This document shows, piece after piece, positions 6,253 through 32,201 of a stretch of DNA of 64,000 nucleotides. Every line of letters begins with the position of its first letter. Position 1 is the stretch's first letter. The notes under the pieces are model-generated. The model saw only the letters and a program-made list of their open reading frames with translations, was not told the DNA's origin and searched no databases. The position numbers and the translations under genes were made by a program. The stretch spans positions 473 through 64,472 of the IMG/VR virus record IMGVR_UViG_3300035088_000004; one strand, written 5' to 3'. The stretch is from a virus (Duplodnaviria; Caudoviricetes).

Positions 6253-6602
6253 AGACCACCGAACAACTAAACGAATTGTTGAGTGTGGCTGAGGGTGCCG
6301 CAAAGTTACGACCGGGGCCGTGGTCCGTATGGGATAGCTGCTCGTGGCGGCGAATCGGAACCACCGCGCCGTATGCAGACGGCGACGTGATTTGTCCGGT
6401 TACGCAAAGAGACGGACACCCCGACCTGTTAGCAGAGCGCGAAGTATTGGACCACGTTGCCGCCTTTGATCCAACTACATGTGCAGAGCTGGTACGGGAG
6501 GTAATGCGGCTAAGTCGCGAACTAAATATAGCAAAGGACTTCATTCTTGAGCATCACGGTGCGGAACCGCCACTTGAGCGCGACGCGGAGGAGCAACCAT
6601 GA
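6249..6602 (+). CDS. Ead/Ea22-like early protein
   Basis: PGPW...HVAAFDPTTCAELVREV motif; ATGA-coupled start 6249. Confidence 0.6.
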   Translation: MKTTEQLNELLSVAEGAAKLRPGPWSVWDSCSWRRIGTTAPYADGDVICPVTQRDGHPDLLAEREVLDHVAAFDPTTCAELVREVMRLSRELNIAKDFILEHHGAEPPLERDAEEQP

Positions 6603-7500: not shown

Positions 7501-8469
7501 ATGAGCGGGATTGATGACATTCGAGAGCGATGGTCGCGCAGGGATATACCCGAGCAGTTATTTAGCGCGCACGTCAAACAAGATATCGACTACCTTCTCT
7601 CCTGTATAGAAGGCAGTGGTCGGCAATGCCGGAACTGTGGGCGCGAGCTACAGTTCTCCATTGAAAGCGATAGCTATTGCTGCGGCGTTAGATACCTTGC
7701 GTCGGATTTCGTTTCTGCGCCCTCCGGCGTGAAATACGATCCATTCAGACGCGCCACCACCCCAACCGCAGGCAGCGAGCGGTGTGCTGAGTCGAATCCG
7801 CAATGTGTGCATTGCGGACACTCTAAACCAACAAAAAACGGTTTCTGCAATGAGCAAGTACCCGGCGGTTATTGTTGGTGTAAGTGTGTCTTCCCTGCGC
7901 CACCTGAAGCTGAGGTGCTGGTCCGTCGCTCTGACGCGGCGCGATGCGCAGAACTGGTTAACGATTCGATTAAGGCCAAGGGAAAGTTTGCTGCCGCGAT
8001 ACTAATGATGCCGCCGTATCCCGCGCCTGACTGTCCAATCTGCGGCTACGCGATAGACAATCAAGGCTTATGCGTGTTGGACAGTACACATACCTCAACG
8101 TCACCACTCGCTTCCACTCCAGTACCAGCCGAGGCTGCGGCGCGGGAACCACATCCGATTGAGAAGCTGATTCAGCAATGGCGTAACACGCTGTCGCCCG
8201 ATTCGGTTGTTACCGATGAAGATGCCGAAGATTTGGTGCTCAGACTGATTGCAAAACGAGGCCAGCCGAGCACCGCTACTAACAGCGCAGTAGTGGAAGC
8301 AAACGATCTCGTCACCCAAGCCCGAGCATTCAATACTGAGATTGCTAACTGTGGCATCAATCCGCAGCGAGCGCATGAACTGATTGATGAGTTGGCAGGG
8401 GAAGTTGAGCGGCTGACTGCGGTGCTTGATGGGTTGAAACGGAAGGATGATGATAGTCGGTCAGGTTGA
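7501..8469 (+). CDS. Multi zinc-finger hypothetical protein
   Basis: 322 aa; CRNC, CVHC, CWC.C, CPIC clusters. Confidence 0.7.
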   Translation: MSGIDDIRERWSRRDIPEQLFSAHVKQDIDYLLSCIEGSGRQCRNCGRELQFSIESDSYCCGVRYLASDFVSAPSGVKYDPFRRATTPTAGSERCAESNPQCVHCGHSKPTKNGFCNEQVPGGYCWCKCVFPAPPEAEVLVRRSDAARCAELVNDSIKAKGKFAAAILMMPPYPAPDCPICGYAIDNQGLCVLDSTHTSTSPLASTPVPAEAAAREPHPIEKLIQQWRNTLSPDSVVTDEDAEDLVLRLIAKRGQPSTATNSAVVEANDLVTQARAFNTEIANCGINPQRAHELIDELAGEVERLTAVLDGLKRKDDDSRSG

Positions 8470-14978: not shown

Positions 14979-15135
14979 AACGTAAACGCTACTACATCAT
15001 CGCGCAACGTTACCCCTGCTATGACGGCTCACGGCCTCTTAGCTTTGCGATCTATCGCGGCAGCACCTTCCTTGCTTACTCATGGTCGCTAGCCCGCGCC
15101 TGGGTTGCTCTGCAATGGATTAAGCGAGGGTGTCA

Positions 15136-17460
15136 ATGAGCTACACTGACTTTCTTGAATCCAAGCGCATCACGGTTGTGCCAAGTGGGTTCACTCCAGC
15201 CGCACTCAACCCGATGCTGTTTGATTTCCAGCGAGACGTAGACTGCTGGGCGCTGGAACGAGGGAAGGCGGCGCTGTTTGAAGATTGCGGTTTGGGTAAG
15301 AGTCCGCAGCAGTTGGTGTGGGCCGAGCAGGTGGTCCATCGCTACAACAAGCCAGTGCTGATCCTTGCTCCACTAGCAGTCAGTAAACAGACTATTCGTG
15401 AAGGTGAGAAGTTCGGTATTGAAGCGCGGCTGGCAAAGGAACAGTCGGATGTCACGACACCCGCGATCTACGTGACTAACTACGAGAAGCTAAATCACTT
15501 TAATCCATCAGTATTCGCCGGGGTTGTGCTCGATGAATCGTCAATCCTCAAGTCGTTCACCGGAGCCACGCGCAACCAGTTGATTGAGTGTTTTGCCAAC
15601 ACGCCGATGAAGCTATGCTGCACCGCTACCCCTGCGCCAAATGACTTCATGGAGTTGGGCAATCACTCTGAGTTCTTAGGCGTGCTTACCCGAACCGAAA
15701 TGCTCTCCACGTTCTTTGTCCATGACGGTGGCGACACTAGCAAGTGGCGGCTTAAGGGTCATGCGGAGGAAGAATATTGGAAGTGGATCTGTCAGTGGGC
15801 GGTCATGCTGCGTCAGCCGTCGGATCTTGGTTACGACAACAATGGATTTGTACTGCCGCAGTTAAATTACCATCATCACGTAGTGAAGAGCGAGAAGGCG
15901 ATTGACGGGTTTCTCTTTCCGGTTGAAGCGCAGACATTGACCGAGCGCCGAGGGGCCCGTCGCGCGTCATTAAATGAACGTGTTGAACTATGTGCGGCGC
16001 TGGTCAATGAGTCCGTCGAACCGTGGCTGATCTGGTGTGACCTTAACGATGAAGGCGACGCGCTGGCGAAGTTAATTCCCGACGCGGTTCAAGTGGCTGG
16101 CAGGGATAAGGACAGTGACAAAGAGTCACGGATGTTCGGGTTTAGCGACGGGCATCATCGCGTGCTGATCAGTAAGCCGTCCATCTGCGGCTGGGGCATG
16201 AATTGGCAGCACTGCGCCAACGTTGCCTTCGTCGGTTTGTCCGACTCATGGGAGCAGTGGTATCAAGCCATCAGGCGAGTCTGGCGGTTCGGTCAAACGC
16301 GTGAAGTCAACTGTCACGTTATCACGTCTGAGGCCGAAGGTGCGGTGGTGCGCAACATCCAGCGCAAGGAGGCCGACGCCGCACGCATGGCAAAGGAGAT
16401 GGTCAAGCATATGAGTGTTTATAATACCGAGGCGGTTAAAGGGACGGTGAGGACGGCAGACAGTTACAAGACGAAAGTTGAAACAGGCGATGGATGGGAG
16501 ATGCATCTTGGCGATTGCGTGGAACAAATCGCTGACGTGAAAGATGAGAGCGTTCACTATTCGATATTTTCTCCACCGTTCATCTCGTTGTATGTTTACA
16601 GTGCGCTAGAGAGAGACATGGGAAATGCCCGGAGCGATGATGAATTTTACACCCACTTTCAGTTTCTTATAAAGGAACTTCATCGCGTACTACTACCGGG
16701 ACGATTGTTATCTTTTCACTGCATGGATATTCCCGCGATGAAAGAACGTGATGGCTATATCGGGCTGAAAGATTTCCCCGGCGATCTAATCCGCATGTTT
16801 CAAGCGCAAGGATTCATCTATCACTCACGAGCGGCTATATGGAAAGATCCGTTAGTTGAGGCAACACGAACAAAAGCACTTGGGCTAATGCATAAACAAG
16901 TTGTTAAGGATAGCGCAATGAGCAGACAAGGATTGCCTGACTATCTTATCACTATGCGCAAACCAGGTGATAACAGTGAGCCAATTTCACGGCCTAAGGG
17001 ATTCATTGAGTTCATTGGTGATGATGAACCAAAGGCGCGTAAGGGTGATCCCGTAATAAGATCCCGCGACATAGAAAAGTATCAGGGAATGACTAGCGAT
17101 GATCCTGTTTACTCACATCAAGTTTGGCGGCGTTATGCGTCTCCTGTGTGGATGGATATAAATCAATCTAACACGTTACAGCGTGAATCCGCACGAGAGG
17201 ATGCTGACGAGAGGCACGTATGTCCTCTACAGTTGCAAGTAATTGAACGCGCACTGGAGCTATGGACCAACGCAAATGACGTAGTCCTTGATCCCTTTGC
17301 CGGCATTGGCTCAACTGGCTATGTCAGCCTGCAACATGGGCGGCGATTCATCGGGTTTGAGTTGAAAGAGAGCTATTTTAAACAGGCAGTTGCTAATCTG
17401 CGGGCTGCTGAGACGGTTACGCAAACAGGATTGTTCGCGGTGGCGGGTGAGAAAAGATGA
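15136..17460 (+). CDS. SNF2-type helicase fused to beta-class amino-DNA methyltransferase
   Basis: DCGLGKS, LDESS, TATP, QAIRRVWRFGQ; then FSPPF (motif IV) and DPFAGIGST (motif I). Confidence 0.9.
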   Translation: MSYTDFLESKRITVVPSGFTPAALNPMLFDFQRDVDCWALERGKAALFEDCGLGKSPQQLVWAEQVVHRYNKPVLILAPLAVSKQTIREGEKFGIEARLAKEQSDVTTPAIYVTNYEKLNHFNPSVFAGVVLDESSILKSFTGATRNQLIECFANTPMKLCCTATPAPNDFMELGNHSEFLGVLTRTEMLSTFFVHDGGDTSKWRLKGHAEEEYWKWICQWAVMLRQPSDLGYDNNGFVLPQLNYHHHVVKSEKAIDGFLFPVEAQTLTERRGARRASLNERVELCAALVNESVEPWLIWCDLNDEGDALAKLIPDAVQVAGRDKDSDKESRMFGFSDGHHRVLISKPSICGWGMNWQHCANVAFVGLSDSWEQWYQAIRRVWRFGQTREVNCHVITSEAEGAVVRNIQRKEADAARMAKEMVKHMSVYNTEAVKGTVRTADSYKTKVETGDGWEMHLGDCVEQIADVKDESVHYSIFSPPFISLYVYSALERDMGNARSDDEFYTHFQFLIKELHRVLLPGRLLSFHCMDIPAMKERDGYIGLKDFPGDLIRMFQAQGFIYHSRAAIWKDPLVEATRTKALGLMHKQVVKDSAMSRQGLPDYLITMRKPGDNSEPISRPKGFIEFIGDDEPKARKGDPVIRSRDIEKYQGMTSDDPVYSHQVWRRYASPVWMDINQSNTLQRESAREDADERHVCPLQLQVIERALELWTNANDVVLDPFAGIGSTGYVSLQHGRRFIGFELKESYFKQAVANLRAAETVTQTGLFAVAGEKR

Positions 17461-20208: not shown

Positions 20209-20409
20209 ATGGCTATCTGCAATGAATGCCTCGACCACTTCACCCCCGACAACTACCTCGAACTTTGCAACTCGTGCGGTGGGCAGATGGTGGAGCAGTA
20301 CGAGTCGATGCAGCAGTTCAAATCGCCGGTGCTGACGATTGCTGAGCTGTCGAGTCGGGTGGTGTTTGGCGAAGCGTCTACACCGCAACCAGTCTGGAGG
20401 ATAGAATGA
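20209..20409 (+). CDS. Zinc-ribbon hypothetical protein
   Basis: SD AGGAG; CNEC...CNSC. Confidence 0.6.
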   Translation: MAICNECLDHFTPDNYLELCNSCGGQMVEQYESMQQFKSPVLTIAELSSRVVFGEASTPQPVWRIE

Positions 20410-21020
20410 GTGAATATCACAAAATAGAAACACTGTTTGAGCGTGATGCGAACACCTTTAAGGTTGACCCGTCAAAACTTAAGAACCGTACCTACTCGCT
20501 GATTAAGACATGGCAGTTCACCGAGAAGATTGACGGTACGAATATCCGCTGCATTTGGAAAGATGGCGTGCTGCAATTTGGCGGCAAGACCGACAATGCA
20601 CAGGTCCATACCGATCTAATCCGCTGGCTATACGAACATATTCCAGCCGCAAGGATGGCAGAGATCTTTCCTGATAGCGAAGCGGTTATTTACGGTGAGG
20701 GCTACGGCGCAGGTATCCAGAAAGGCGGCTTGTACTCACTGACTAAAAAGTTCATCGTCTTTGACGTGCTTGTCGGCGGCAAGTGGTGGTTAAGTTGGGA
20801 GAATACTTGCGACGTTGCTGCGAAGCTCGATCTTGAAGTGGTACCATTCATTGGCGAAATGACACTTGAAGAAGCAACGGAGATGGTTCGCGCGGGATTC
20901 AAGTCGCGTCTAAATAACGGTCAGATGCAAGCGGAAGGACTAGTGGGTCGCACCGCTGAGCCGCTATTCGACAAGAAAGGTGCGCGGCTAATCGTAAAAC
21001 TTAAGACGAAGGACTTTTAG
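20406..21020 (+). CDS. ATP-dependent RNA ligase (Rnl2-like adenylyltransferase domain only)
   Basis: Motifs TEKIDGTN (I), YGEGYG (III), FIVFDV (IIIa), EGLV (IV), KLK (V). Confidence 0.85.
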   Translation: MSEYHKIETLFERDANTFKVDPSKLKNRTYSLIKTWQFTEKIDGTNIRCIWKDGVLQFGGKTDNAQVHTDLIRWLYEHIPAARMAEIFPDSEAVIYGEGYGAGIQKGGLYSLTKKFIVFDVLVGGKWWLSWENTCDVAAKLDLEVVPFIGEMTLEEATEMVRAGFKSRLNNGQMQAEGLVGRTAEPLFDKKGARLIVKLKTKDF

Positions 21021-21022
21021 CA

Positions 21023-21214
21023 ATGACGGCCAACAAGCCCCAACTCAAAGCCGTGCCGGTTGCTGATGGGCCAGTGCGACCGCCGTTTATCAGTGATGCG
21101 GAGCGGGAAGGGCTGCCGGTGACTAATCAACGAGATACAGGCGCTCCGGTGCTGGACGTAGATGCGGTGTTGAGAGGCGCTTCACCGGATTACGTCAAGA
21201 GCAACCAGCAATGA
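21023..21214 (+). CDS. Hypothetical protein
   Basis: ORF chain. Confidence 0.55.
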   Translation: MTANKPQLKAVPVADGPVRPPFISDAEREGLPVTNQRDTGAPVLDVDAVLRGASPDYVKSNQQ

Positions 21215-21459
21215 CTTGCCCTACCTGTTCCAGTCCGACCCGCGTGATTGATTCCCGTGAAGATGAAGGTGTTAGCAACGTGCGCCGTCGCCGACATGCC
21301 TGTCGATCCTGTGGTACTCGGTTTTCAACCTATGAAGTCACTGCTGATGAGTATAACAAGATGCGAGCAATGCGAATCAACACTACGCAGATTGATTCGA
21401 CGATAGCTACTCTACGATCGATCAAGGCGCAGTTTGGAGCAACTAATGGAAAAGACTGA
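21211..21459 (+). CDS. NrdR-like zinc-ribbon regulator (no ATP cone)
   Basis: MTCPTC...TRVIDSR...RRRRHACRSCGTRFSTYE. Confidence 0.8.
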   Translation: MTCPTCSSPTRVIDSREDEGVSNVRRRRHACRSCGTRFSTYEVTADEYNKMRAMRINTTQIDSTIATLRSIKAQFGATNGKD

Positions 21460-21658
21460 ATATAACTACCTGTTGGAGTTCTGCGTGCAGGTTTCAACCT
21501 TCGTGACAATGATTGGCAAGTTTACCCACGTTGATGAAGCTGAGCGGAAGGAGTTGGAGTTGACGCTATCGGTGTTGCAACGGAAACTTAGCGAGATCAT
21601 GCCCCGCGTGCAGGATCGGGAGGCGGCGGCTGCGACGGAACAGTTTACAGGTTTCTAG
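21446..21658 (+). CDS. Hypothetical protein
   Basis: SD GGAG. Confidence 0.6.
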   Translation: MEKTEYNYLLEFCVQVSTFVTMIGKFTHVDEAERKELELTLSVLQRKLSEIMPRVQDREAAAATEQFTGF

Positions 21659-21663
21659 GCTTA

Positions 21664-21740
21664 TGCCGTGACGCGTAAGCGTATGCCGGGTCTAATCGCT
21701 TCCCAGCGTCGCTCGGTGAAAGTCTGAGACACGGCAACCA
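21664..21740 (+). ncRNA. 77-nt tRNA-like RNA with encoded ACCA end and defective anticodon arm
   Basis: TGCCGTG/CACGGCA stem + A-CCA; GCGT/ATGC D-like stem; CTCGG-TGAAAGT-CTGAG T-like arm. Confidence 0.65.
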
Positions 21741-21795
21741 GTTGGAACAAGTGGGTTATATCAACAACTTTAGATAGAAAGCGAGAATCCTTACA

Positions 21796-22092
21796 ATGAA
21801 ACACCATCGACGAAACCGCATCAGGTACTTGCTGATGACCACAACCATGCTACTGGCAATCCTCGCACTAGCCCTACCTAGCCAACCAGTAGACGCCTTC
21901 GTGCAGGCCGACTGTTACCAATGCATCCGCGACTGCGCTGATGATGCCTGGTGGGAAATGCGGCAGTGCTTGAACAAAGGTGGGACGACTACCGATTGCA
22001 AGGCTGTATACGACAACGCCTACAACGCCTGTCGCGCGTTTATCTGTAACTACGGGTTAGGGTGCGATCTGCCGAGGGTTGATGATTACTGA
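21796..22092 (+). CDS. Secreted 8-cysteine small protein
   Basis: Basic N-terminus, hydrophobic core, VDA cleavage site, then 8 Cys in ~64 aa. Confidence 0.75.
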   Translation: MKHHRRNRIRYLLMTTTMLLAILALALPSQPVDAFVQADCYQCIRDCADDAWWEMRQCLNKGGTTTDCKAVYDNAYNACRAFICNYGLGCDLPRVDDY

Positions 22093-22104
22093 AAGGTGGG
22101 AAAT

Positions 22105-22498
22105 TGACTGGCCCTGACGCGGGGCGCTCCTAAGAAGGTCTACGGGCCGGAGGAGGTCGTACTCGGCAGGGAATTCTTGGGTCGTTGTAAGGACCGAGGG
22201 AATCCGTAGGCAGAAGGTCAAGTGAAAGAGTTGACCGCTCAGAAACGTGGGCCGTAAGGCTGATAAGGAGTACGAGTAACGGCAACTTCCTAACGGGTAG
22301 CAATGGCCCAAGGGTTATTCAGGTGGTCGTAACCGACTGTCAGCGGCATGACTTAATTGGTCGGGGCGCGAGAAGCAGGTGGAAGGCTAACTCGCATGTT
22401 CGATTAGCAACTTAGACATGGAAAGGAGTATCTCGGACCGAAACTACAGCAACAGGTAGAAAGGGAGAGGCGCTTGCTGGAGACGGTGGGCGTCTCTT
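22105..22498 (+). ncRNA. Large (~400 nt) structured non-coding RNA, family unknown
   Basis: No credible ORF; many helices with G-U pairs on + strand, GNRA loops, 8-bp long-range pairing; ends approximate. Confidence 0.7.
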
Positions 22499-22499
22499 G

Positions 22500-22964
22500 C
22501 TATTGGGTGGGATGGTCCAACTCAGCGTAGGAAATGTTATGATACTTCAGCAGTCCGATCAGCTTCTCTTCCTGCTTCTCGTGATGCTTCAGGCGAATGT
22601 CCAACAGCCCATTAGCCTCACGCGAATCAATCAACTCGCCATCCAACTCTTCAGCCTTGTTACGCCAGAATAATATCTGCCCACGCATCTGATCTTCCTT
22701 CGCTTCCCATTCCTGTCGGCGCTCTTCAGCTTTTCTAATAACAGATTGAATTTCACGGAGGGTTTCCAACGTAATGCCCACCGGAGAGATCTCAGTTGCG
22801 ATATGAATGCTGCGAGCCTCTGCGTCAATCTTCCTGATCTCGGCAGGCTCGCGTTTCTTCTTAAACCACAGGGTAGATAAAGTTCCAGCGACAGCAAGGA
22901 CTGCTGTAATCACGTTTGAGAGCAGCAACCATGCGTGAGGAATGGGTGTGGTTTCCTGTTGCAT
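22500..22964 (-). CDS. Single-TM coiled-coil protein (holin/spanin-like)
   Basis: N-terminal TM followed by coiled coil. Confidence 0.7.
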   Translation of the reverse strand: MQQETTPIPHAWLLLSNVITAVLAVAGTLSTLWFKKKREPAEIRKIDAEARSIHIATEISPVGITLETLREIQSVIRKAEERRQEWEAKEDQMRGQILFWRNKAEELDGELIDSREANGLLDIRLKHHEKQEEKLIGLLKYHNISYAELDHPTQ

Positions 22965-22967
22965 CTC

Positions 22968-23420
22968 TCATTGGTCTAGGATCTTATGTAGCCGTGCTAT
23001 CTCCGATCTAATCGCCTCTTGTTCCCTACGGTTGGTGACGGATAGATCGAACGTTGGTTTCAGGTAGCGATCAGGTTTGTTAGCACGCGGGTAGCGATGC
23101 CCGTTACGTTGGGCTGTCTCCGGTGGGTAGACGCGGTTGAAGTCCATCCGCTTGACTCTCCAGAATTCACCGAGACAGGCAGCTTCAGCAGCGTCCGCGT
23201 CTTCAAACACCCCTTCGTCTTCATACCAGCAGAAGGTCAGTTTCTTGCCGTTGATCTCAACTTCATCCAGCGCCGGGATACCGAGCCGGGTGAATGCAAA
23301 GCGATTGAAAGGGAGGTAGACGAAGCGGAAGAAAGCCCGTTTCCACCACGGGCTGCGCGAGTCGATATTGTACTTGCGCTGGCTGACGTGGTGGACTTCG
23401 GTGAGCGCGGTCTGTTGCAT
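22968..23420 (-). CDS. Hypothetical protein
   Basis: Likely start MQQTALTEV; the upstream part of the track ORF overlaps another gene. Confidence 0.65.
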   Translation of the reverse strand: MQQTALTEVHHVSQRKYNIDSRSPWWKRAFFRFVYLPFNRFAFTRLGIPALDEVEINGKKLTFCWYEDEGVFEDADAAEAACLGEFWRVKRMDFNRVYPPETAQRNGHRYPRANKPDRYLKPTFDLSVTNRREQEAIRSEIARLHKILDQ

Positions 23421-25398: not shown

Positions 25399-25417
25399 AA
25401 GTGTTTAGTTCAACCCA

Positions 25418-26154
25418 ACGCGCCCCGTGCCTGTTCCGGTATAGCCGTTCCGCAGTTATCCCGTTGCTGGCTGCCGGGGGCGCGTCAGAGTCGGGGCTGC
25501 GAGTGGGAAGCGGCAAAACCATAGATCCGAAGATCCACGTCTAAGCGCGTCTTACGAAATCGCGCTCCATCCCACTCGCATTGTCAAAGGTTGCGCGGCG
25601 CGTGGGTCACATTGAAGTGTTCATCTATCACGCCTTCTCATCGCCTCCATGACAGAAGACCGCGCATCAAGTTGAGGCGTCAGTAGCTATCTGACCTTAC
25701 CACGTAGCAAGCTCGCTAATCTGCATTGCGTACGGCCTCAGTGTCAATCCCCGCAACACCGCATGTCTCCCAACAAGAGGCTGCTCAACTCCTATCCAGC
25801 CATGAATCAAGCGTCCCGGTTACGGTGTTGCGGGAAAGGGGTTGGGCTGAAGCACCGGGCTTATCCCTCGATTAATCGTTGTACCGCGTTGTTATCGACA
25901 CAGCCAACAATCACCAGCGCCCCAGCCCACAATCAATGAACCGGAGGTCAGGTAGGGCTACAGGGAGGGCTCCGTGCGCCGTTCCTTACTTATGCTGGGC
26001 ATCGCTCCGGTTCAAATTAGATTACATAGCCTAGCGCCTCAGTCGTAGCCATCTTTACCCTTCTGGGTTGGCGACTTTAACCGCGATGGCGTGCTGTTTC
26101 GGACTTCGCTACGACGCGAGCTTACTAAGCATCTCCACGGAAAGGCTATGTAAT
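25418..26154 (-). ncRNA. Tandem array of eight stem-closed structured RNA units
   Basis: Eight consecutive units each bounded by its own perfect 6-12 bp inverted repeat, 6-12 nt linkers, internal UUCG/GNRA hairpins and G-U pairs mostly favouring the - strand. Confidence 0.75.
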
Positions 26155-29745: not shown

Positions 29746-29754
29746 TATTTCCTT
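29746..29754 (+). repeat. Left target-site duplication TATTTCCTT
   Basis: Identical 9-mer at 33483-33491. Confidence 0.9.
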
Positions 29755-29863
29755 GGCTTTGCCTCAAAAAGGTCTAAACACCTTCGTTTGCCTCAAAAAT
29801 CAAGTTGACCGATCTTCGCGCCGCGATTCGCGGCCAACCTGAGTTTGAGGCAAAGGATAGAAT

Positions 29864-29950
29864 TTAGATCTTAACTCCCATCGCGTTTAGCAACTGTTCC
29901 TCTTCAAACGTTAATTTACCCTCCGTGAATCTGAGAAACAGGTCAAGCAT
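29864..29950 (-). CDS. 28-aa micropeptide
   Basis: MLDLFLRFTEGKLTFEEEQLLNAMGVKI with SD GAGGA. Confidence 0.45.
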   Translation of the reverse strand: MLDLFLRFTEGKLTFEEEQLLNAMGVKI

Positions 29951-30483
29951 GGTCGATTCCTCTTATACAGGTTTCGGTCGTGTAGGGGCTGGTGAGTGCT
30001 TCGAACACTTGCCAGTCCCGCTTCTAGCGAGGCCAACCACTATAGAGACATTGTTTCACACATGCAAGGGCCAATCCGAAATAATTCTTGATCAAAAATC
30101 CTGCGTGATTTACTCTTAGCGTGTCGTAAGCCCTACATTGTGGACGTTCTTCCGACAAGGTTGGAATGGACGTGACAAGAAACAAGGACGATGCGGGCGA
30201 GAACGATGTGTGCTGTTCTTTTACAACCAATCCCAGTTGAGTCTGATTTATATACCCTGGCCTAAGGCTAAGGGGGTTCTCATCAGCCCAAGGCTGACAA
30301 AAACATATTAGGCAACCGTTCTTGTCTTGCCTAAGGTAAATCAAAGCTCGCTGTGCAAAAACTAGGAGACGCGGTACGTCTACCCTTTTTGCATGGCGGG
30401 CTTTTTTAGTTTGGACTTAGAACAGTTCGGCGTTCTTAACTTAAAGAAAGGGCTCACTTTATCGAGAGCTAAATCCTTAAATT

Positions 30484-30758: not shown

Positions 30759-31994
30759 TTACGCGGCGTGAGCTTCCGAAAAGTCTACGTCAATTCCTAA
30801 CTCATGCTGTGACTGAATGACTACGCAGAGATTGTGGCAAAGCACCTTGCACAGTGCTTCGTTAATCTGCGCCGTGAGTGTCTTACTGCGAAGTCTCTGC
30901 CCAAACTTCGACTTGATCATGTGGAACGTCGTTTCAACGTTGGACCGCTTGTGATAGTGCGTCAAGAATTCTTCGCGGTGGTCTGTGTAGAATTCCAGCA
31001 TTCGAGTCCACAGCGTTGACTTTGGACCATAGTTGGTCTGTGCTTTGGAATTGGACTTGAACGGGATGTAAGGGATGGCCTTATGCCGCAAAGTCGTTAA
31101 TAGATTCTCTCCGCTTAAATAGGCTTTGTCTGCGCTCACTTCTTTCAGCGTGAAACCGTTTCCGGCAGTCGCTTCGAGCAAAGGCTTGAAGTAACCGTGA
31201 TCGTTTGAGTATCCATCGCTTATCTCAACGGACGTAACCACGTTGGTTTTTACCCCACACATCAGATGCACCTTGATCCACATGCGCCGATCTTCTTCCT
31301 TGCCATACTTCACATCTAGCCAACGCGTGAATTGACCTGTGCTGAACCCCGAACTATCAACCGCGAAGTCTGATTCAATCGATTTGAGCGGCTGTGCACT
31401 CAACTTGATCAACTCATACAAGTACGGTGTCAATGCTTCGGCTTCGAGGTAACGAAAGACTGAATTATATGAAGGCATCTGAGACAGAAAGCCGCGTCTT
31501 CTCGCTTCCTGTAGATCACTCTGAAAGCGGCGACCTGAAACCGTAGAATAAACTTTGAACGTGCTGGCGAAGATAATGTCAGCCAACGATAGACGCGGCC
31601 TCCCGCGATGCTGCACAGGCTCAGGGATGTTTCTGCATAGTTCGTAGAGCAATGCCTGTAGCTGTGACTTCTCTTGGGTCTGAGCGGCATTGTACGCGGG
31701 CCAATTCTGCGTGTAGGTCTTGCGCGTGACCTTGACCGTTTCGGTTGTGATGGTCGCGCCGTCTGCGGTCTGCTCGCGTTGGATCGTGTATTCGACTGCA
31801 AAGATATGCTTGCATCTGGCGCTAGTGAATTCGTGATCACGGCAAGTGCAACTCGGCTTTTCAGCGTCCAGCGCAACGGTGTACTTTTCCTGCTTATTGC
31901 TTTGTGAGGGAACAAGCCAAAGATTGCCTTTGCCTTGGCGCGTCAGTTTGGTTTTAGCGGCTATTTCAAGACCTTTGATCTCGCGTGGTTCCAT
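30759..31994 (-). CDS. DDE transposase (IS4/IS5 superfamily) with N-terminal SWIM zinc finger
   Basis: CTC...CKH SWIM; AVDSSG, SADKAY, YHKRSNVETTFHMIK (Y-2-R-3-E-6-K); start 31994 has AAGGAG SD. Confidence 0.92.
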   Translation of the reverse strand: MEPREIKGLEIAAKTKLTRQGKGNLWLVPSQSNKQEKYTVALDAEKPSCTCRDHEFTSARCKHIFAVEYTIQREQTADGATITTETVKVTRKTYTQNWPAYNAAQTQEKSQLQALLYELCRNIPEPVQHRGRPRLSLADIIFASTFKVYSTVSGRRFQSDLQEARRRGFLSQMPSYNSVFRYLEAEALTPYLYELIKLSAQPLKSIESDFAVDSSGFSTGQFTRWLDVKYGKEEDRRMWIKVHLMCGVKTNVVTSVEISDGYSNDHGYFKPLLEATAGNGFTLKEVSADKAYLSGENLLTTLRHKAIPYIPFKSNSKAQTNYGPKSTLWTRMLEFYTDHREEFLTHYHKRSNVETTFHMIKSKFGQRLRSKTLTAQINEALCKVLCHNLCVVIQSQHELGIDVDFSEAHAA

Positions 31995-32130
31995 TATGAG
32001 CATCTCCTTGCCTTTAAGAAGCGATTCGCTCACAATGTCTTTACCGGAGATCAAGTGCGAGCAATCGCGTTTGATTTTCAAAAGGGCCTTAGCGGTTACA
32101 GCCGTTAGGGCCTTTGCTTTTCGATGAGGG

Positions 32131-32201
32131 AATTATACGTGCGCGGGTACGTATAAGTCAAGGCGAATGGTTGACTTCTACGAAGGCGGGCACGTATAAT
32201 T
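32131..32201. promoter_or_regulatory. Mirror-image divergent promoters
   Basis: Both strands read TTGACTTnTACG-N6-GCACGTATAATT (TTGACT-18-TATAAT). Confidence 0.8.

What the first reader, a model, noticed from the sequence alone, without database searches (positions are those of the whole stretch)
22105..22498. ~400-nt highly structured RNA at the junction of convergent operons
Seen on the + strand: GTCTACGGG/TCCGTAGGC (22138-46/22203-11), GGTCAA/TTGACC (22216-36), GGCC-GTAA-GGCT, GAGTAAC/GTTATTC (22274-80/22314-20) enclosing a GCAA hairpin, and a long arm at about 22347-22420 containing GCGAG/CTCGC. A terminal 15-bp stem with six G-U pairs and a GAGA loop lies at 22465-98. TCGTACTC (22157-64) is complementary to GAGTACGA (22268-75), a possible pseudoknot. 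Established: large phage ncRNAs such as GOLLD and ROOL often lie near tRNAs. Inference: a divergent member of one of these or a new large RNA class, possibly a ribozyme or scaffold.
Basis: partly seen in the sequence, partly recalled or inferred. Interest (0 to 1): 0.75.

Follow-up and report, generated by a model that had tools for sequence, protein, structure and literature searches.

The report
Candidate structured RNA cassette in soil phage
The 400-base gap between two converging gene blocks of a soil phage most likely encodes a previously undescribed folded RNA ending in a terminator-like hairpin, but only a few related sequences could be seen, so its function remains a guess.

Summary
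The window is a complete 64.5-kb phage genome with terminal repeats. Bases 22093-22499 are non-coding: every + frame has stops, and the antisense 84-aa ORF has no homologue.

Folding beyond chance is confined to the + strand. It applies to a 5' three-way-junction domain (22126-22292, z -4.07) and the terminal hairpin. The middle part, 22293-22462, folds no better than shuffles.

No Rfam family matches and there is no tRNA or tmRNA, so it is not GOLLD, ROOL, RNase P or an intron.

The only relatives seen are short contigs from soil and rhizosphere runs. Near-identical copies sit beside more diverged flanks. One divergent copy keeps two hairpins through multiple changes, including a GUAA-to-UUCG tetraloop swap.

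All searches of viral, metagenome, genome, phage and plasmid collections found nothing.

Verdict: probably a real, new, strand-specific RNA element that moves as a cassette. Function is unknown. A 12-bp match between one loop and the upstream gene's start codon is a testable lead. Interest is moderate.

The parts
22103..22500 (+). The whole non-coding cassette: candidate structured RNA plus terminal hairpin
   Evidence: Stops in all + frames. Contigs from other samples stop matching at about 22102 (X4) and at 22500 (X2), that is at the two flanking stop codons. No Rfam match.
22126..22131 (+). 5' strand of the predicted outer closing helix (pairs with 22424-22429)
   Evidence: Mean pair probability 0.91 in the partition function. 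Prediction only, with no comparative test.
22137..22148 (+). Small hairpin with a C-UACG-G tetraloop
   Evidence: Pair probability 0.90. UNCG-type loop on the + strand only.
22149..22290 (+). Three-way-junction domain: a long closing stem (22149-65 with 22273-90) carrying three arms
   Evidence: z -4.07 for 22126-22292, with the MFE taking 11% of the ensemble. Helix probabilities 0.86-1.0.
22166..22211 (+). Arm 1, with an 8-nt apical loop at 22184-22191
   Evidence: Bases 22182-22193 are complementary to the upstream gene's start region, 12 pairs and -16.4 kcal/mol.
22216..22236 (+). Arm 2, a hairpin with apical GAAAG
   Evidence: Probability 1.0. In the divergent contig (X3 record 6) six substitutions and one insertion change the stem, yet a hairpin with the same apical GAAAG can still form. 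This was worked out by hand from the table.
22237..22271 (+). Arm 3, ending in the GGCC-GUAA-GGCU hairpin (22250-61)
   Evidence: Probability 0.88-0.99. The divergent contig has 22249 G>C, 22250 G>A, 22252 and 22254 deleted, 22256 A>T and 22257 A>C. Together these give a 6-pair stem closed by a UUCG tetraloop (worked out by hand).
22293..22462 (+). Middle and 3' part: conserved in close copies but with no predicted structure beyond chance
   Evidence: z +0.23. 0 changes in 151 nt (X4), 2 in 151 (X2) and 4 in 266 (X3). No ORF longer than 13 codons that starts with ATG (read by eye).
22465..22498 (+). Terminal 15-pair hairpin with a GAGA loop: probable terminator of rightward transcription
   Evidence: Probability 0.99, 6 G-U pairs. 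On the - strand only 6 pairs remain. The base of the stem resembles the hairpin at the same junction in related phage L004, which is followed by UUUUGCUU. Here the tail is U-poor and the terminator scan found none.
21796..22092 (+). Upstream gene: 98-aa protein with a hydrophobic N-terminus and 8 cysteines
   Evidence: 20 of 24 variable sites seen in other samples are third codon positions, so it is a real gene. No Pfam, PHROG or PADLOC match. No relative in viral contigs.
21788..21799 (+). Start-codon region of the 98-aa gene, complementary to loop 22182-22193
   Evidence: Inverted repeat I2. Best of 99 gene starts and, apart from the loop's own antisense, the best site in the genome.
22500..22964 (-). 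Convergent downstream gene (154 aa, unknown function), whose stop codon abuts the terminal hairpin
   Evidence: There are 5 relatives in viral contigs at 53-64% identity, none with the RNA.

Best explanation
The intergenic stretch 22103-22500 is a genuine RNA element read from the + strand. It is made as the last part of the rightward transcript, after the 98-aa gene, and ends at the 15-pair hairpin 22465-98, which acts as the terminator and as a 3' cap.

Its core is a roughly 145-nt three-way junction (22149-22290) held by a long stem and topped by stable tetraloops. The following 170 nt are conserved in sequence but not visibly folded.

The element behaves as a separate cassette that is exchanged among soil phages independently of its neighbours.

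Most likely mode of action (inferred, not shown): a stable 3'-UTR-derived RNA that works through RNA contacts. The one concrete candidate contact is pairing of the arm-1 loop (22182-93) with the start-codon region of the 98-aa gene (21788-99). That pairing would lower the gene's translation in cis or in trans.

Shown here: non-coding status, strand specificity, a fold better than chance for the 5' domain, hairpins kept in a divergent natural copy, and cassette boundaries.

Inferred: that it is transcribed, where its ends lie, and what it does.
For: 1. Non-coding.
- Stops in all three + frames.
- The antisense 84-aa ORF has no Pfam or PHROG match and no homologue among 5.8 billion proteins.
- The divergent copy carries +1, -1 and -1 indels inside that ORF.

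2. Strand.
- z -3.6 on the + strand against -0.7 on the - strand.
- 23 G-U pairs among 120 predicted pairs, 6 of them in the terminal stem.
- 3 of the 4 tetraloops in the fold are UACG, GUAA and GAGA. Chance gives about 4e-4 if loops were random, although the energy model favours such loops.

3. Fold.
- The 5' domain has z -4.07, with 0 of 200 shuffles as good.

4. Comparative.
- In a contig about 83% identical over 22190-22309, all 14 listed differences (11 of its 20 substitutions plus its 3 indels) fall in 22220-22257, which spans the two hairpins and the short junction between them.
- Both hairpins stay foldable. One changes from a GUAA loop to a UUCG loop, with 22249 G>C creating a new pair and 22250 G>A turning a G-U pair into A-U.
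- The apical GAAAG (22224-28) shows no listed change. In the junction 22237-48 the only listed change is 22246 C>A.

5. Close copies from three other studies (X2, X3, X5).
- At most 9 changes in 609 nt of the RNA, against 40 in 606 nt of the adjacent gene (Fisher p 3.5e-6).
- Contigs X2 record 2 and X5 record 12 bridge the stop codon.
- The two RNA-region changes that could be placed (22321, 22417) lie in predicted unpaired positions.

6. Cassette behaviour.
- One X4 contig carries the 98-aa gene followed by unrelated sequence from about 22102.
- One X2 contig carries the RNA followed from 22501 by unrelated sequence.
- 5 phages sharing the 154-aa gene and 44 sharing the RNA ligase lack the element.

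7. Loop-to-start-codon match.
- 12 pairs, -16.4 kcal/mol. It is the best of 99 gene starts (the next is -10.2) and the best site genome-wide apart from the loop's own antisense.
Against: - No transcript evidence of any kind.
- There is only one divergent homologue. It is a 151-nt contig at depth 2, and 9 of its 20 substitutions were not listed, so no proper covariation test was possible.
- The runs were found through 31-mers of the RNA stretch itself. 'RNA more conserved than its flanks' is therefore biased by how the runs were chosen. Recent transfer of the cassette would explain it as well as purifying selection.
- Contigs from one run need not come from one genome.
- The fold z-score is matched by 7 of 512 background windows.
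- The middle 170 nt fold no better than chance.
- The terminal hairpin lacks a U-tract, and the terminator scan reported none.
- The loop-to-start match is post hoc. About 1.3 inverted repeats of 12 nt with one mismatch are expected by chance in this 1.1-kb region (my estimate). My rough corrected p is 0.01-0.03.
- The loop appears to differ in the divergent copy: the 30-letter loose end reads differently at that place.
Confidence: 0.5

Rival explanations
1. An ordinary spacer plus a terminator. On this view the stretch is non-functional intergenic DNA left by mosaic recombination at an operon junction. Only the terminal hairpin would have a role. The apparent structure and conservation would come from G-rich composition, chance, and recent spread of this piece of DNA.
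For: - Related phages have unrelated spacers of 165-206 nt, and 700 nt in L003, at the same junction, each with a terminal hairpin.
- The middle 170 nt fold at chance level.
- 7 of 512 background windows fold as well as the 5' domain.
- The conservation contrast is biased by how the runs were chosen (picked runs by words of this stretch).
- No homologue was found in any collection searched.
Against: - The divergent copy keeps two hairpins through 14 listed differences, including a swap between the two classic stable RNA tetraloop types.
- 3 of 4 tetraloops are GNRA or UNCG on the + strand only.
- The 5' domain has a well-defined fold, with the MFE taking 11% of the ensemble.
- The stretch is present in at least 4 further studies, with different flanks.
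Confidence: 0.2
2. A new class of large, trans-acting ornate RNA that folds as a whole (about 400 nt) through tertiary contacts that a secondary-structure program cannot see. It would act as a protein-binding scaffold, a self-assembling particle or a ribozyme, in the way proposed for GOLLD and ROOL.
For: - Several stable tetraloops and a three-way junction.
- The unfolded-looking 3' half is nevertheless nearly invariant in close copies.
- Cassette-like spread among phages.
- GOLLD and ROOL are also phage-associated. This is recalled, together with the abstract starts listed for PMC5737381 and 10.1101/2024.12.08.627333.
Against: - No match to either family or to any ribozyme model.
- Much smaller than GOLLD or ROOL (sizes recalled).
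- No tRNA neighbours.
- Half of the element shows no structure signal.
- No evidence for tertiary contacts or catalysis.
Confidence: 0.15
3. A cis-acting control element for the operon junction. The folded 5' domain would sense a ligand or a protein and set how much rightward transcription stops at the 22465-98 hairpin. That in turn would set how much antisense RNA is made against the convergent 154-aa operon. This would be riboswitch-like or antitermination-like control of antisense transcription.
For: - The layout is a folded domain, then a spacer, then a terminator-like hairpin that directly faces a convergent gene.
- The weak U-tract fits a leaky, regulatable terminator.
- The loop 22448-55 contains CAGCAA, which is complementary to UUGCUG in the 5' arm of the terminal stem (read).
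Against: - 170 nt lie between the domain and the hairpin, which is long for an expression platform.
- The 6-nt alternative pairing is well within chance.
- No known aptamer matches.
- No comparative support.
Confidence: 0.08
4. A DNA-level element, such as a replication origin that uses an R-loop formed by a G-rich transcript, or a recombination site.
For: - The + strand is G-rich: 143 G against 81 C in 407 nt.
- The cumulative GC skew peaks at 22-23 kb.
- Recombination breakpoints lie at both edges.
Against: - No iterons or tandem repeats and no AT-rich unwinding stretch.
- The skew turn coincides with the change in gene direction.
- The kept features (G-U pairs, GNRA and UNCG loops) matter for RNA, not for duplex DNA.
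Confidence: 0.05
5. Protein-coding: the antisense 84-aa ORF (22057-22311, - strand) or a small + strand ORF is the real feature.
For: An 84-aa open frame with a TTG start exists on the - strand.
Against: - No Pfam or PHROG match.
- No homologue in the 5.8-billion-protein collection.
- It overlaps the real 98-aa gene by 36 nt.
- The divergent natural copy has a net -1 indel inside it.
- The + strand ORFs are at most 13 codons (read).
Confidence: 0.02

Closest known systems
GOLLD and ROOL large phage-associated RNAs
   Same: A non-coding, multi-helix RNA encoded by a phage, with no known function, and apparently mobile among phages.
   Different: No match to either covariance model. It is about 400 nt, of which only about 200 show structure, against roughly 600-800 nt for those families (sizes recalled). 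No tRNA genes are nearby. It occurs in soil phages.
3'-UTR elements that pair with their own mRNA's start region (Staphylococcus aureus icaR type; recalled, no paper read here)
   Same: A sequence downstream of the stop codon is complementary to the translation start region of the same gene: 12 pairs between 22182-93 and 21788-99.
   Different: Here the complementary bases sit in the apical loop of a large three-way-junction domain. The element is a separable cassette. The pairing is untested and may be chance.
phi29 packaging RNA (pRNA)
   Same: A phage-encoded RNA built around a three-way junction with a long closing helix.
   Different: No match to the Rfam model. This phage has a T4-type large terminase, an SPP1-type portal and an HK97-type capsid protein, not a phi29-type packaging system. 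The RNA lies at the end of the replication-gene block, 30 kb from the packaging genes.
Intrinsic (Rho-independent) terminators at convergent operon junctions
   Same: The terminal G+C-rich 15-pair hairpin directly follows the last rightward sequence and abuts the convergent gene's stop codon. A hairpin with the same stem base stands at this junction in related phage L004.
   Different: The U-tract is missing (the tail reads GCUAUUGGG) and the consensus scan did not call it. About 360 nt of conserved extra RNA lie in front of it.

Membership tests
GOLLD RNA | Score at or above the Rfam covariance model's threshold | tested here: not met
   0 matches in the whole window at gathering thresholds. 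Nothing up to E = 10 in 21900-22700. That the model is in Rfam 15 is recalled, not checked by a call.
GOLLD RNA | Frequent neighbourhood of tRNA genes in phages or prophages (recalled) | tested here: not met
   ARAGORN found 0 tRNA or tmRNA genes in 64 kb.
ROOL RNA | Score at or above the Rfam covariance model's threshold | tested here: not met
   as for GOLLD.
Group I / group II introns | Match to the intron covariance models, and interruption of a host gene whose exons join in frame | tested here: not met
   No model match. The stretch lies between the stop codons of two convergent genes, so there is no exon to rejoin.
RNase P RNA / tmRNA | Match to the covariance models; tRNA-like end and tag frame for tmRNA | tested here: not met
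phi29-type pRNA | Match to the Rfam model, and a phi29-type packaging motor in the same genome | tested here: not met
   No model match. The phage has a T4-type terminase and an SPP1-type portal.
Intrinsic terminator (terminal hairpin only) | G+C-rich stem-loop | tested here: met
   15 pairs with probability 0.99.
Intrinsic terminator (terminal hairpin only) | Run of U directly after the stem | tested here: not met
   The tail is GCUAUUGGG, and the scan found 0 terminator-like sites in 21400-23100. The related hairpin in L004 does have UUUUGCUU.
Conserved structured RNA (general criterion) | Compensatory changes that keep helices across homologues | tested here: inconclusive
   Two hairpins are kept in the one divergent contig available (worked out by hand). 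There were too few sequences for a statistical covariation test.
Conserved structured RNA (general criterion) | The RNA is made in the cell | not testable with these tools
A northern blot or RNA-seq of infected cells is needed.
3'-UTR to start-region pairing (works-like comparison) | Complementarity between the 3' element and the gene's own start region beyond what other genes show | tested here: met
   -16.4 kcal/mol against -10.2 for the next best of 99 gene starts. The effect on translation was not tested.

The most novel reading that the evidence does not exclude
A new family of large tertiary-folded phage RNA. It would be a roughly 400-nt cassette, with a three-way-junction core and an invariant 3' half, that hops between soil phages on its own. 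It would act in trans as a ribozyme, a self-assembling RNA particle or a decoy for a host protein, making it a soil-phage counterpart of GOLLD and ROOL.
Probability: 0.15. Interest if true: 0.75.

Novelty: new variant of a known kind. Interest (0 to 1): 0.45.

Why it matters
Phage-encoded structured RNAs with no match to any described family are still rare. The few large ones known (GOLLD, ROOL) turned out to have unusual architectures.

If this element is real, it adds a soil-phage RNA family that travels as its own cassette. That hints at a selectable function carried by RNA alone.

The loop-to-start-codon complementarity gives a simple first hypothesis that can be falsified at the bench.

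If the element is only a spacer with a terminator, the case is a useful caution. Fold scores of this size occur in 1-2% of windows of the same genome.

Tried and rejected
Known RNA families
- Rfam at gathering thresholds on the whole window: 0 matches.
- Rfam up to E = 10 on 21900-22700: only a chance sroH fragment at 22640-78.
- ARAGORN: 0 genes.

Searches for homologues (all empty)
- blastn 'distant' against 50,697 phage records and 72,556 plasmids.
- Exact patterns in viral contigs: a 21-mer and an 18-mer, 0 hits each.
- A 20-mer in metagenome contigs: 2 hits, L008 and L009. Each shares only 20-21 nt and lies inside an ORF of about 200 aa, so I took both as chance. An apparent wider resemblance in the MAFFT alignment was not borne out by blastn.
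- Spaced-seed trick: I gave open stretches of the RNA region to the search for related loci as if they were proteins. These were + frame 22191-22412 and - frame 22133-22318, in viral contigs and genome contigs. There were 43, 365, 600 and 600 pattern hits, and none was confirmed.
- Synteny route: 5 phages with the 154-aa gene, 80 with the terminase of which 37 contigs were searched, and 44 with the RNA ligase.
  - blastn and nhmmer found nothing.
  - A covariance model of 22147-22292 found nothing in 32 records. In the window it found only itself plus one 8-bit chance match at 6311-6373 (E 2.7).
- The 98-aa protein has no relative in viral contigs.

Expression
- No RNA holder was listed by the look-up of sequencing runs, so nothing can be said about expression.

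Other checks
- The 700-nt gap at the same junction in L003 shows no fold signal.
- A duplex scan of the whole RNA against all gene starts did not discriminate: shuffled RNAs scored as well.
- The sigma-70-like site at 21769-97 overlaps the start codon, and as many such sites are expected by chance. I rejected it as the promoter.
- CsrB-like decoy idea: I counted about 13 GGA motifs, but that is what the base composition predicts (hand estimate), and most lie in stems.
- 11-nt tetraloop receptor idea: CCUAAG at 22129-34 lacks the matching UAUGG strand.
- Neighbouring genes gave no functional hint (Pfam, PHROG and PADLOC).

Tools that were not available
Full report
**What the window is**

The window is bases 473-64472 of a 64,472-bp virus record with direct terminal repeats, estimated complete. 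It is a tailed phage with a T4-type large terminase, an SPP1-type portal and an HK97-type capsid protein on the - strand at 50-56 kb. Replication and nucleotide-metabolism genes lie on the + strand up to 22 kb: a sliding clamp, a PD-(D/E)XK nuclease, a helicase-methylase fusion, an RNA ligase and an NrdR-like zinc ribbon.

The finding lies exactly where the rightward block ends and a leftward block of unknown genes ends. The rightward block ends with the stop codon of a 98-aa gene at 22090-92. The leftward block ends with the stop codon of a 154-aa gene at 22500-02. At 407 nt, this is one of the largest non-coding gaps in a tightly packed genome.

The stretch is non-coding:
- All three + frames are broken by stops, and the longest ATG-started + frame is 13 codons.
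- The antisense 84-aa ORF overlaps the real upstream gene.
- That ORF has no Pfam or PHROG match and no homologue among 5.8 billion clustered proteins.

Folding beyond chance is real but partial, and it is strand-specific:

| Stretch | Strand | z | Shuffles as good |
|---|---|---|---|
| 22093-22499 | + | -3.6 | 0 of 100 |
| 22093-22499 | - | -0.7 | 24 of 100 |
| 22103-22462 (no terminal hairpin) | + | -2.28 | 2 of 100 |
| 22103-22462 | - | -0.44 | 39 of 100 |
| 22126-22292 (5' domain) | + | -4.07 | 0 of 200 |
| 22293-22462 (middle and 3' part) | + | +0.23 | 111 of 200 |

The signal sits in the 5' domain 22126-22292, whose MFE takes 11% of the ensemble, and in the 15-pair terminal hairpin.

As a calibration I scored 512 windows of 167 nt across both strands of the genome. 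Seven reach z <= -3.9. The fold score alone therefore places the domain in the top 1-2%, which is not unique.

**Anatomy**

- An outer helix, 22126-31 with 22424-29 (probability 0.91), encloses the rest.
- A small C-UACG-G hairpin lies at 22137-48.
- A long interrupted stem (22149-65 with 22273-90) carries a three-way junction with three arms:
  - Arm 1 is 22166-22211, with an 8-nt loop.
  - Arm 2 is 22216-36, with an apical GAAAG.
  - Arm 3 is 22237-71, ending in GGCC-GUAA-GGCU.
Without covariation I cannot decide between them.
- The region 22293-22462 has only low-probability helices.
- The terminal hairpin 22465-98 has probability 0.99.

Of the four tetraloops in the fold, three (UACG, GUAA, GAGA) belong to the GNRA or UNCG types when read on the + strand. 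None does on the - strand. 23 of 120 predicted pairs are G-U.

**Known families**

cmscan of the whole window at gathering thresholds gave 0 matches. A permissive scan of 21900-22700 up to E = 10 gave only a 39-nt chance match to sroH outside the stretch. ARAGORN found nothing. GOLLD, ROOL, RNase P, tmRNA, group I/II introns, pRNA, the known ribozymes and the riboswitches are therefore excluded as far as Rfam 15 models can tell.

**Relatives**

This was the weak point. Nothing was found in any of the following:
- blastn against phage and plasmid records.
- Three exact-pattern scans. The two metagenome hits share only 20-21 nt and lie inside ORFs.
- Four spaced-seed scans using open frames of the RNA region.
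- Three synteny routes, searched with blastn, nhmmer and a covariance model of the 5' domain: 5 phages with the 154-aa gene, 37 of the 80 contigs with the terminase, and 44 with the RNA ligase.

The five phages that share the 154-aa gene (53-64% identity) have unrelated spacers at this junction. These are 165 nt in L002, 206 nt in L004 and about 700 nt in L003. L004's spacer ends in a hairpin whose stem base resembles the one here and which is followed by UUUUGCUU. The terminal hairpin therefore looks like the junction's terminator, and the rest of the stretch is extra.

**The comparative evidence**

A word index of public runs listed 11 soil, rhizosphere and freshwater metagenome runs from 11 studies. 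One may be the source of the window. I laid the contigs of four others (X2-X5) on 21400-23100.

(a) *The 98-aa gene is real.* 20 of its 24 variable sites are third codon positions (p 7e-7). About a fifth of third positions differ in X2 and X5.

(b) *Close copies of the RNA stretch are nearly unchanged.*
- In X2, X3 and X5 there are at most 9 changes in 609 nt of the RNA, against 40 in 606 nt of the gene (p 3.5e-6).
- Two contigs bridge the stop codon.
- The two changes I could place (22321 and 22417) fall in predicted unpaired positions.
- Caveat: the runs were picked by exact words of the RNA stretch itself, and contigs of one run need not be one genome. This contrast shows either constraint or recent transfer of the piece, and I cannot separate the two.

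(c) *The edges of similarity coincide with the two stop codons.*
- An X4 contig has the gene followed by unrelated sequence from about 22102.
- An X2 contig has the RNA followed from 22501 by different sequence, which read backwards again ends a gene with a stop codon.
- The stretch therefore behaves as a cassette.

(d) *One divergent copy keeps two hairpins.* X3 record 6 is a 151-nt contig at depth 2. It aligns to 22190-22309 with 20 substitutions and 3 indels.
- All 14 listed differences lie in 22220-22257, which spans arms 2 and 3 and the short junction between them. The apical GAAAG shows no listed change, and in the junction 22237-48 only 22246 C>A is listed.
- In arm 3:
  - 22249 G>C creates a pair with G22262.
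  - 22250 G>A turns a G-U pair into A-U.
  - The two deletions, together with 22256 A>T and 22257 A>C, convert the GUAA loop into UUCG closed by C-G.
- In arm 2, six substitutions and an inserted C replace the A-U-rich upper stem with a G-C one in a shifted register.
- I worked these out by hand from the table.
- Nine of this contig's substitutions were not listed, so the rest of it cannot be judged.
- The three indels give a net -1 shift inside the antisense ORF.

A swap between the two classic stable tetraloop families at the same place is the kind of change seen in real structured RNAs. It is the strongest single argument here, but it rests on one shallow contig.

**How it probably works**

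What is shown: a non-coding, + strand-specific, partly well-folded element. Two of its hairpins survive divergence, and it moves independently of its neighbours.

What is inferred: it is transcribed as the tail of the rightward transcript and capped by the 22465-98 hairpin, giving a stable 3'-UTR-derived RNA.

One concrete lead emerged. The 12 nt centred on the arm-1 loop (22182-93) can pair with 21788-99, which contains the start codon of the 98-aa gene directly upstream. The duplex has 12 pairs including one G-U and -16.4 kcal/mol. This is the best of 99 gene starts (the next is -10.2). Apart from the loop's own antisense, it is the best site in the genome on either strand.

It is post hoc. 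About one such inverted repeat is expected by chance in the 1.1-kb region. After rough correction for the number of loops and plausible targets I put it at p 0.01-0.03. The loop also appears to read differently in the divergent copy (loose end). That would fit a target-matched loop, or would mean nothing at all.

I put 0.5 on 'genuine RNA element of this general kind'. The translational-pairing mechanism is the leading sub-hypothesis but is unproven.

Rivals, in order:
- A spacer plus terminator with chance structure (0.2).
- A larger trans-acting ornate RNA or ribozyme (0.15).
- A cis control of termination and antisense read-through (0.08).
- A DNA-level element (0.05).
- Protein-coding (0.02).

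**Novelty and score**

If real, this is an RNA family with no counterpart in Rfam 15. I searched the paper library twice. I saw only listings and the starts of abstracts, and found nothing describing it. Those searches were by general terms and cannot exclude a description in print. Supplements were not consulted.

It is a new family within a known kind (phage structured non-coding RNA or 3'-UTR element), not a new kind of system. Interest is moderate at 0.45:
- The comparative hint is attractive.
- The family looks rare.
- No function follows from its context: the neighbours have no Pfam, PHROG or PADLOC assignment.
- Half of the claimed '400-nt highly structured RNA' shows no structure signal.

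Noticed in passing
window 32001-32167 (+), 7751-7917 (-), 29751-30417 (both strands): In the 167-nt background scan these windows fold far better than shuffles: z -6.1, z -5.6, and z -4.1 to -4.7. The 29.7-30.4 kb pair is strong on both strands, so it is probably DNA-level inverted repeats. It flanks a 106-aa ORF just downstream of a DDE transposase gene.
   Followed up: no
window 30759-32081 (-): A 440-aa protein with a SWIM zinc finger and a DDE transposase domain (Pfam E 1e-23). This looks like an insertion sequence sitting inside the phage genome.
   Followed up: no
window 15130-17460 (+): A 776-aa fusion of an SNF2/helicase-like N-terminal part (weak matches) with an N6/N4 DNA methylase domain.
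   Followed up: no
window 20406-21020 (+) and 21211-21459 (+): An RNA ligase (PF09414, E 2.5e-19) and an 82-aa protein with an NrdR-type zinc ribbon lie 0.6-1.7 kb upstream of the RNA element. 44 IMG/VR phages share the ligase at 38-80% identity, but none shares the RNA.
   Followed up: partly
window 21796-22092 (+): The 98-aa gene product has a hydrophobic N-terminal segment and 8 cysteines. It has no family match and no relative in viral contigs. Variants of it occur in at least three other soil or rhizosphere studies, with almost only third-position changes, so it is an expressed-looking orphan gene.
   Followed up: partly
window 22369-22379 and 22571-22581: An 11-nt perfect inverted repeat between the RNA's 3' half and the coding region of the convergent 154-aa gene. 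About 0.14 such repeats are expected by chance in the 1.1-kb region. It could pair only if rightward transcription reads through the terminal hairpin.
   Followed up: no
L003 4475-5173: A related phage has a gap of about 700 nt with no long ORF at the same operon junction. It has no sequence similarity to the element here and shows no fold signal on either strand (z about -0.5 to +2.4 in sliding windows).
   Followed up: yes
L009 278-351: A nearly perfect 74-nt palindromic hairpin in an unrelated metagenome contig. It gave spurious matches to two microRNA precursor models, both below their thresholds.
   Followed up: no
window 25399-26067 and 285-688: Two other large gaps without ORFs (669 nt and 404 nt). 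The first lies between divergent gene blocks and is probably a promoter region. Neither was examined.
   Followed up: no
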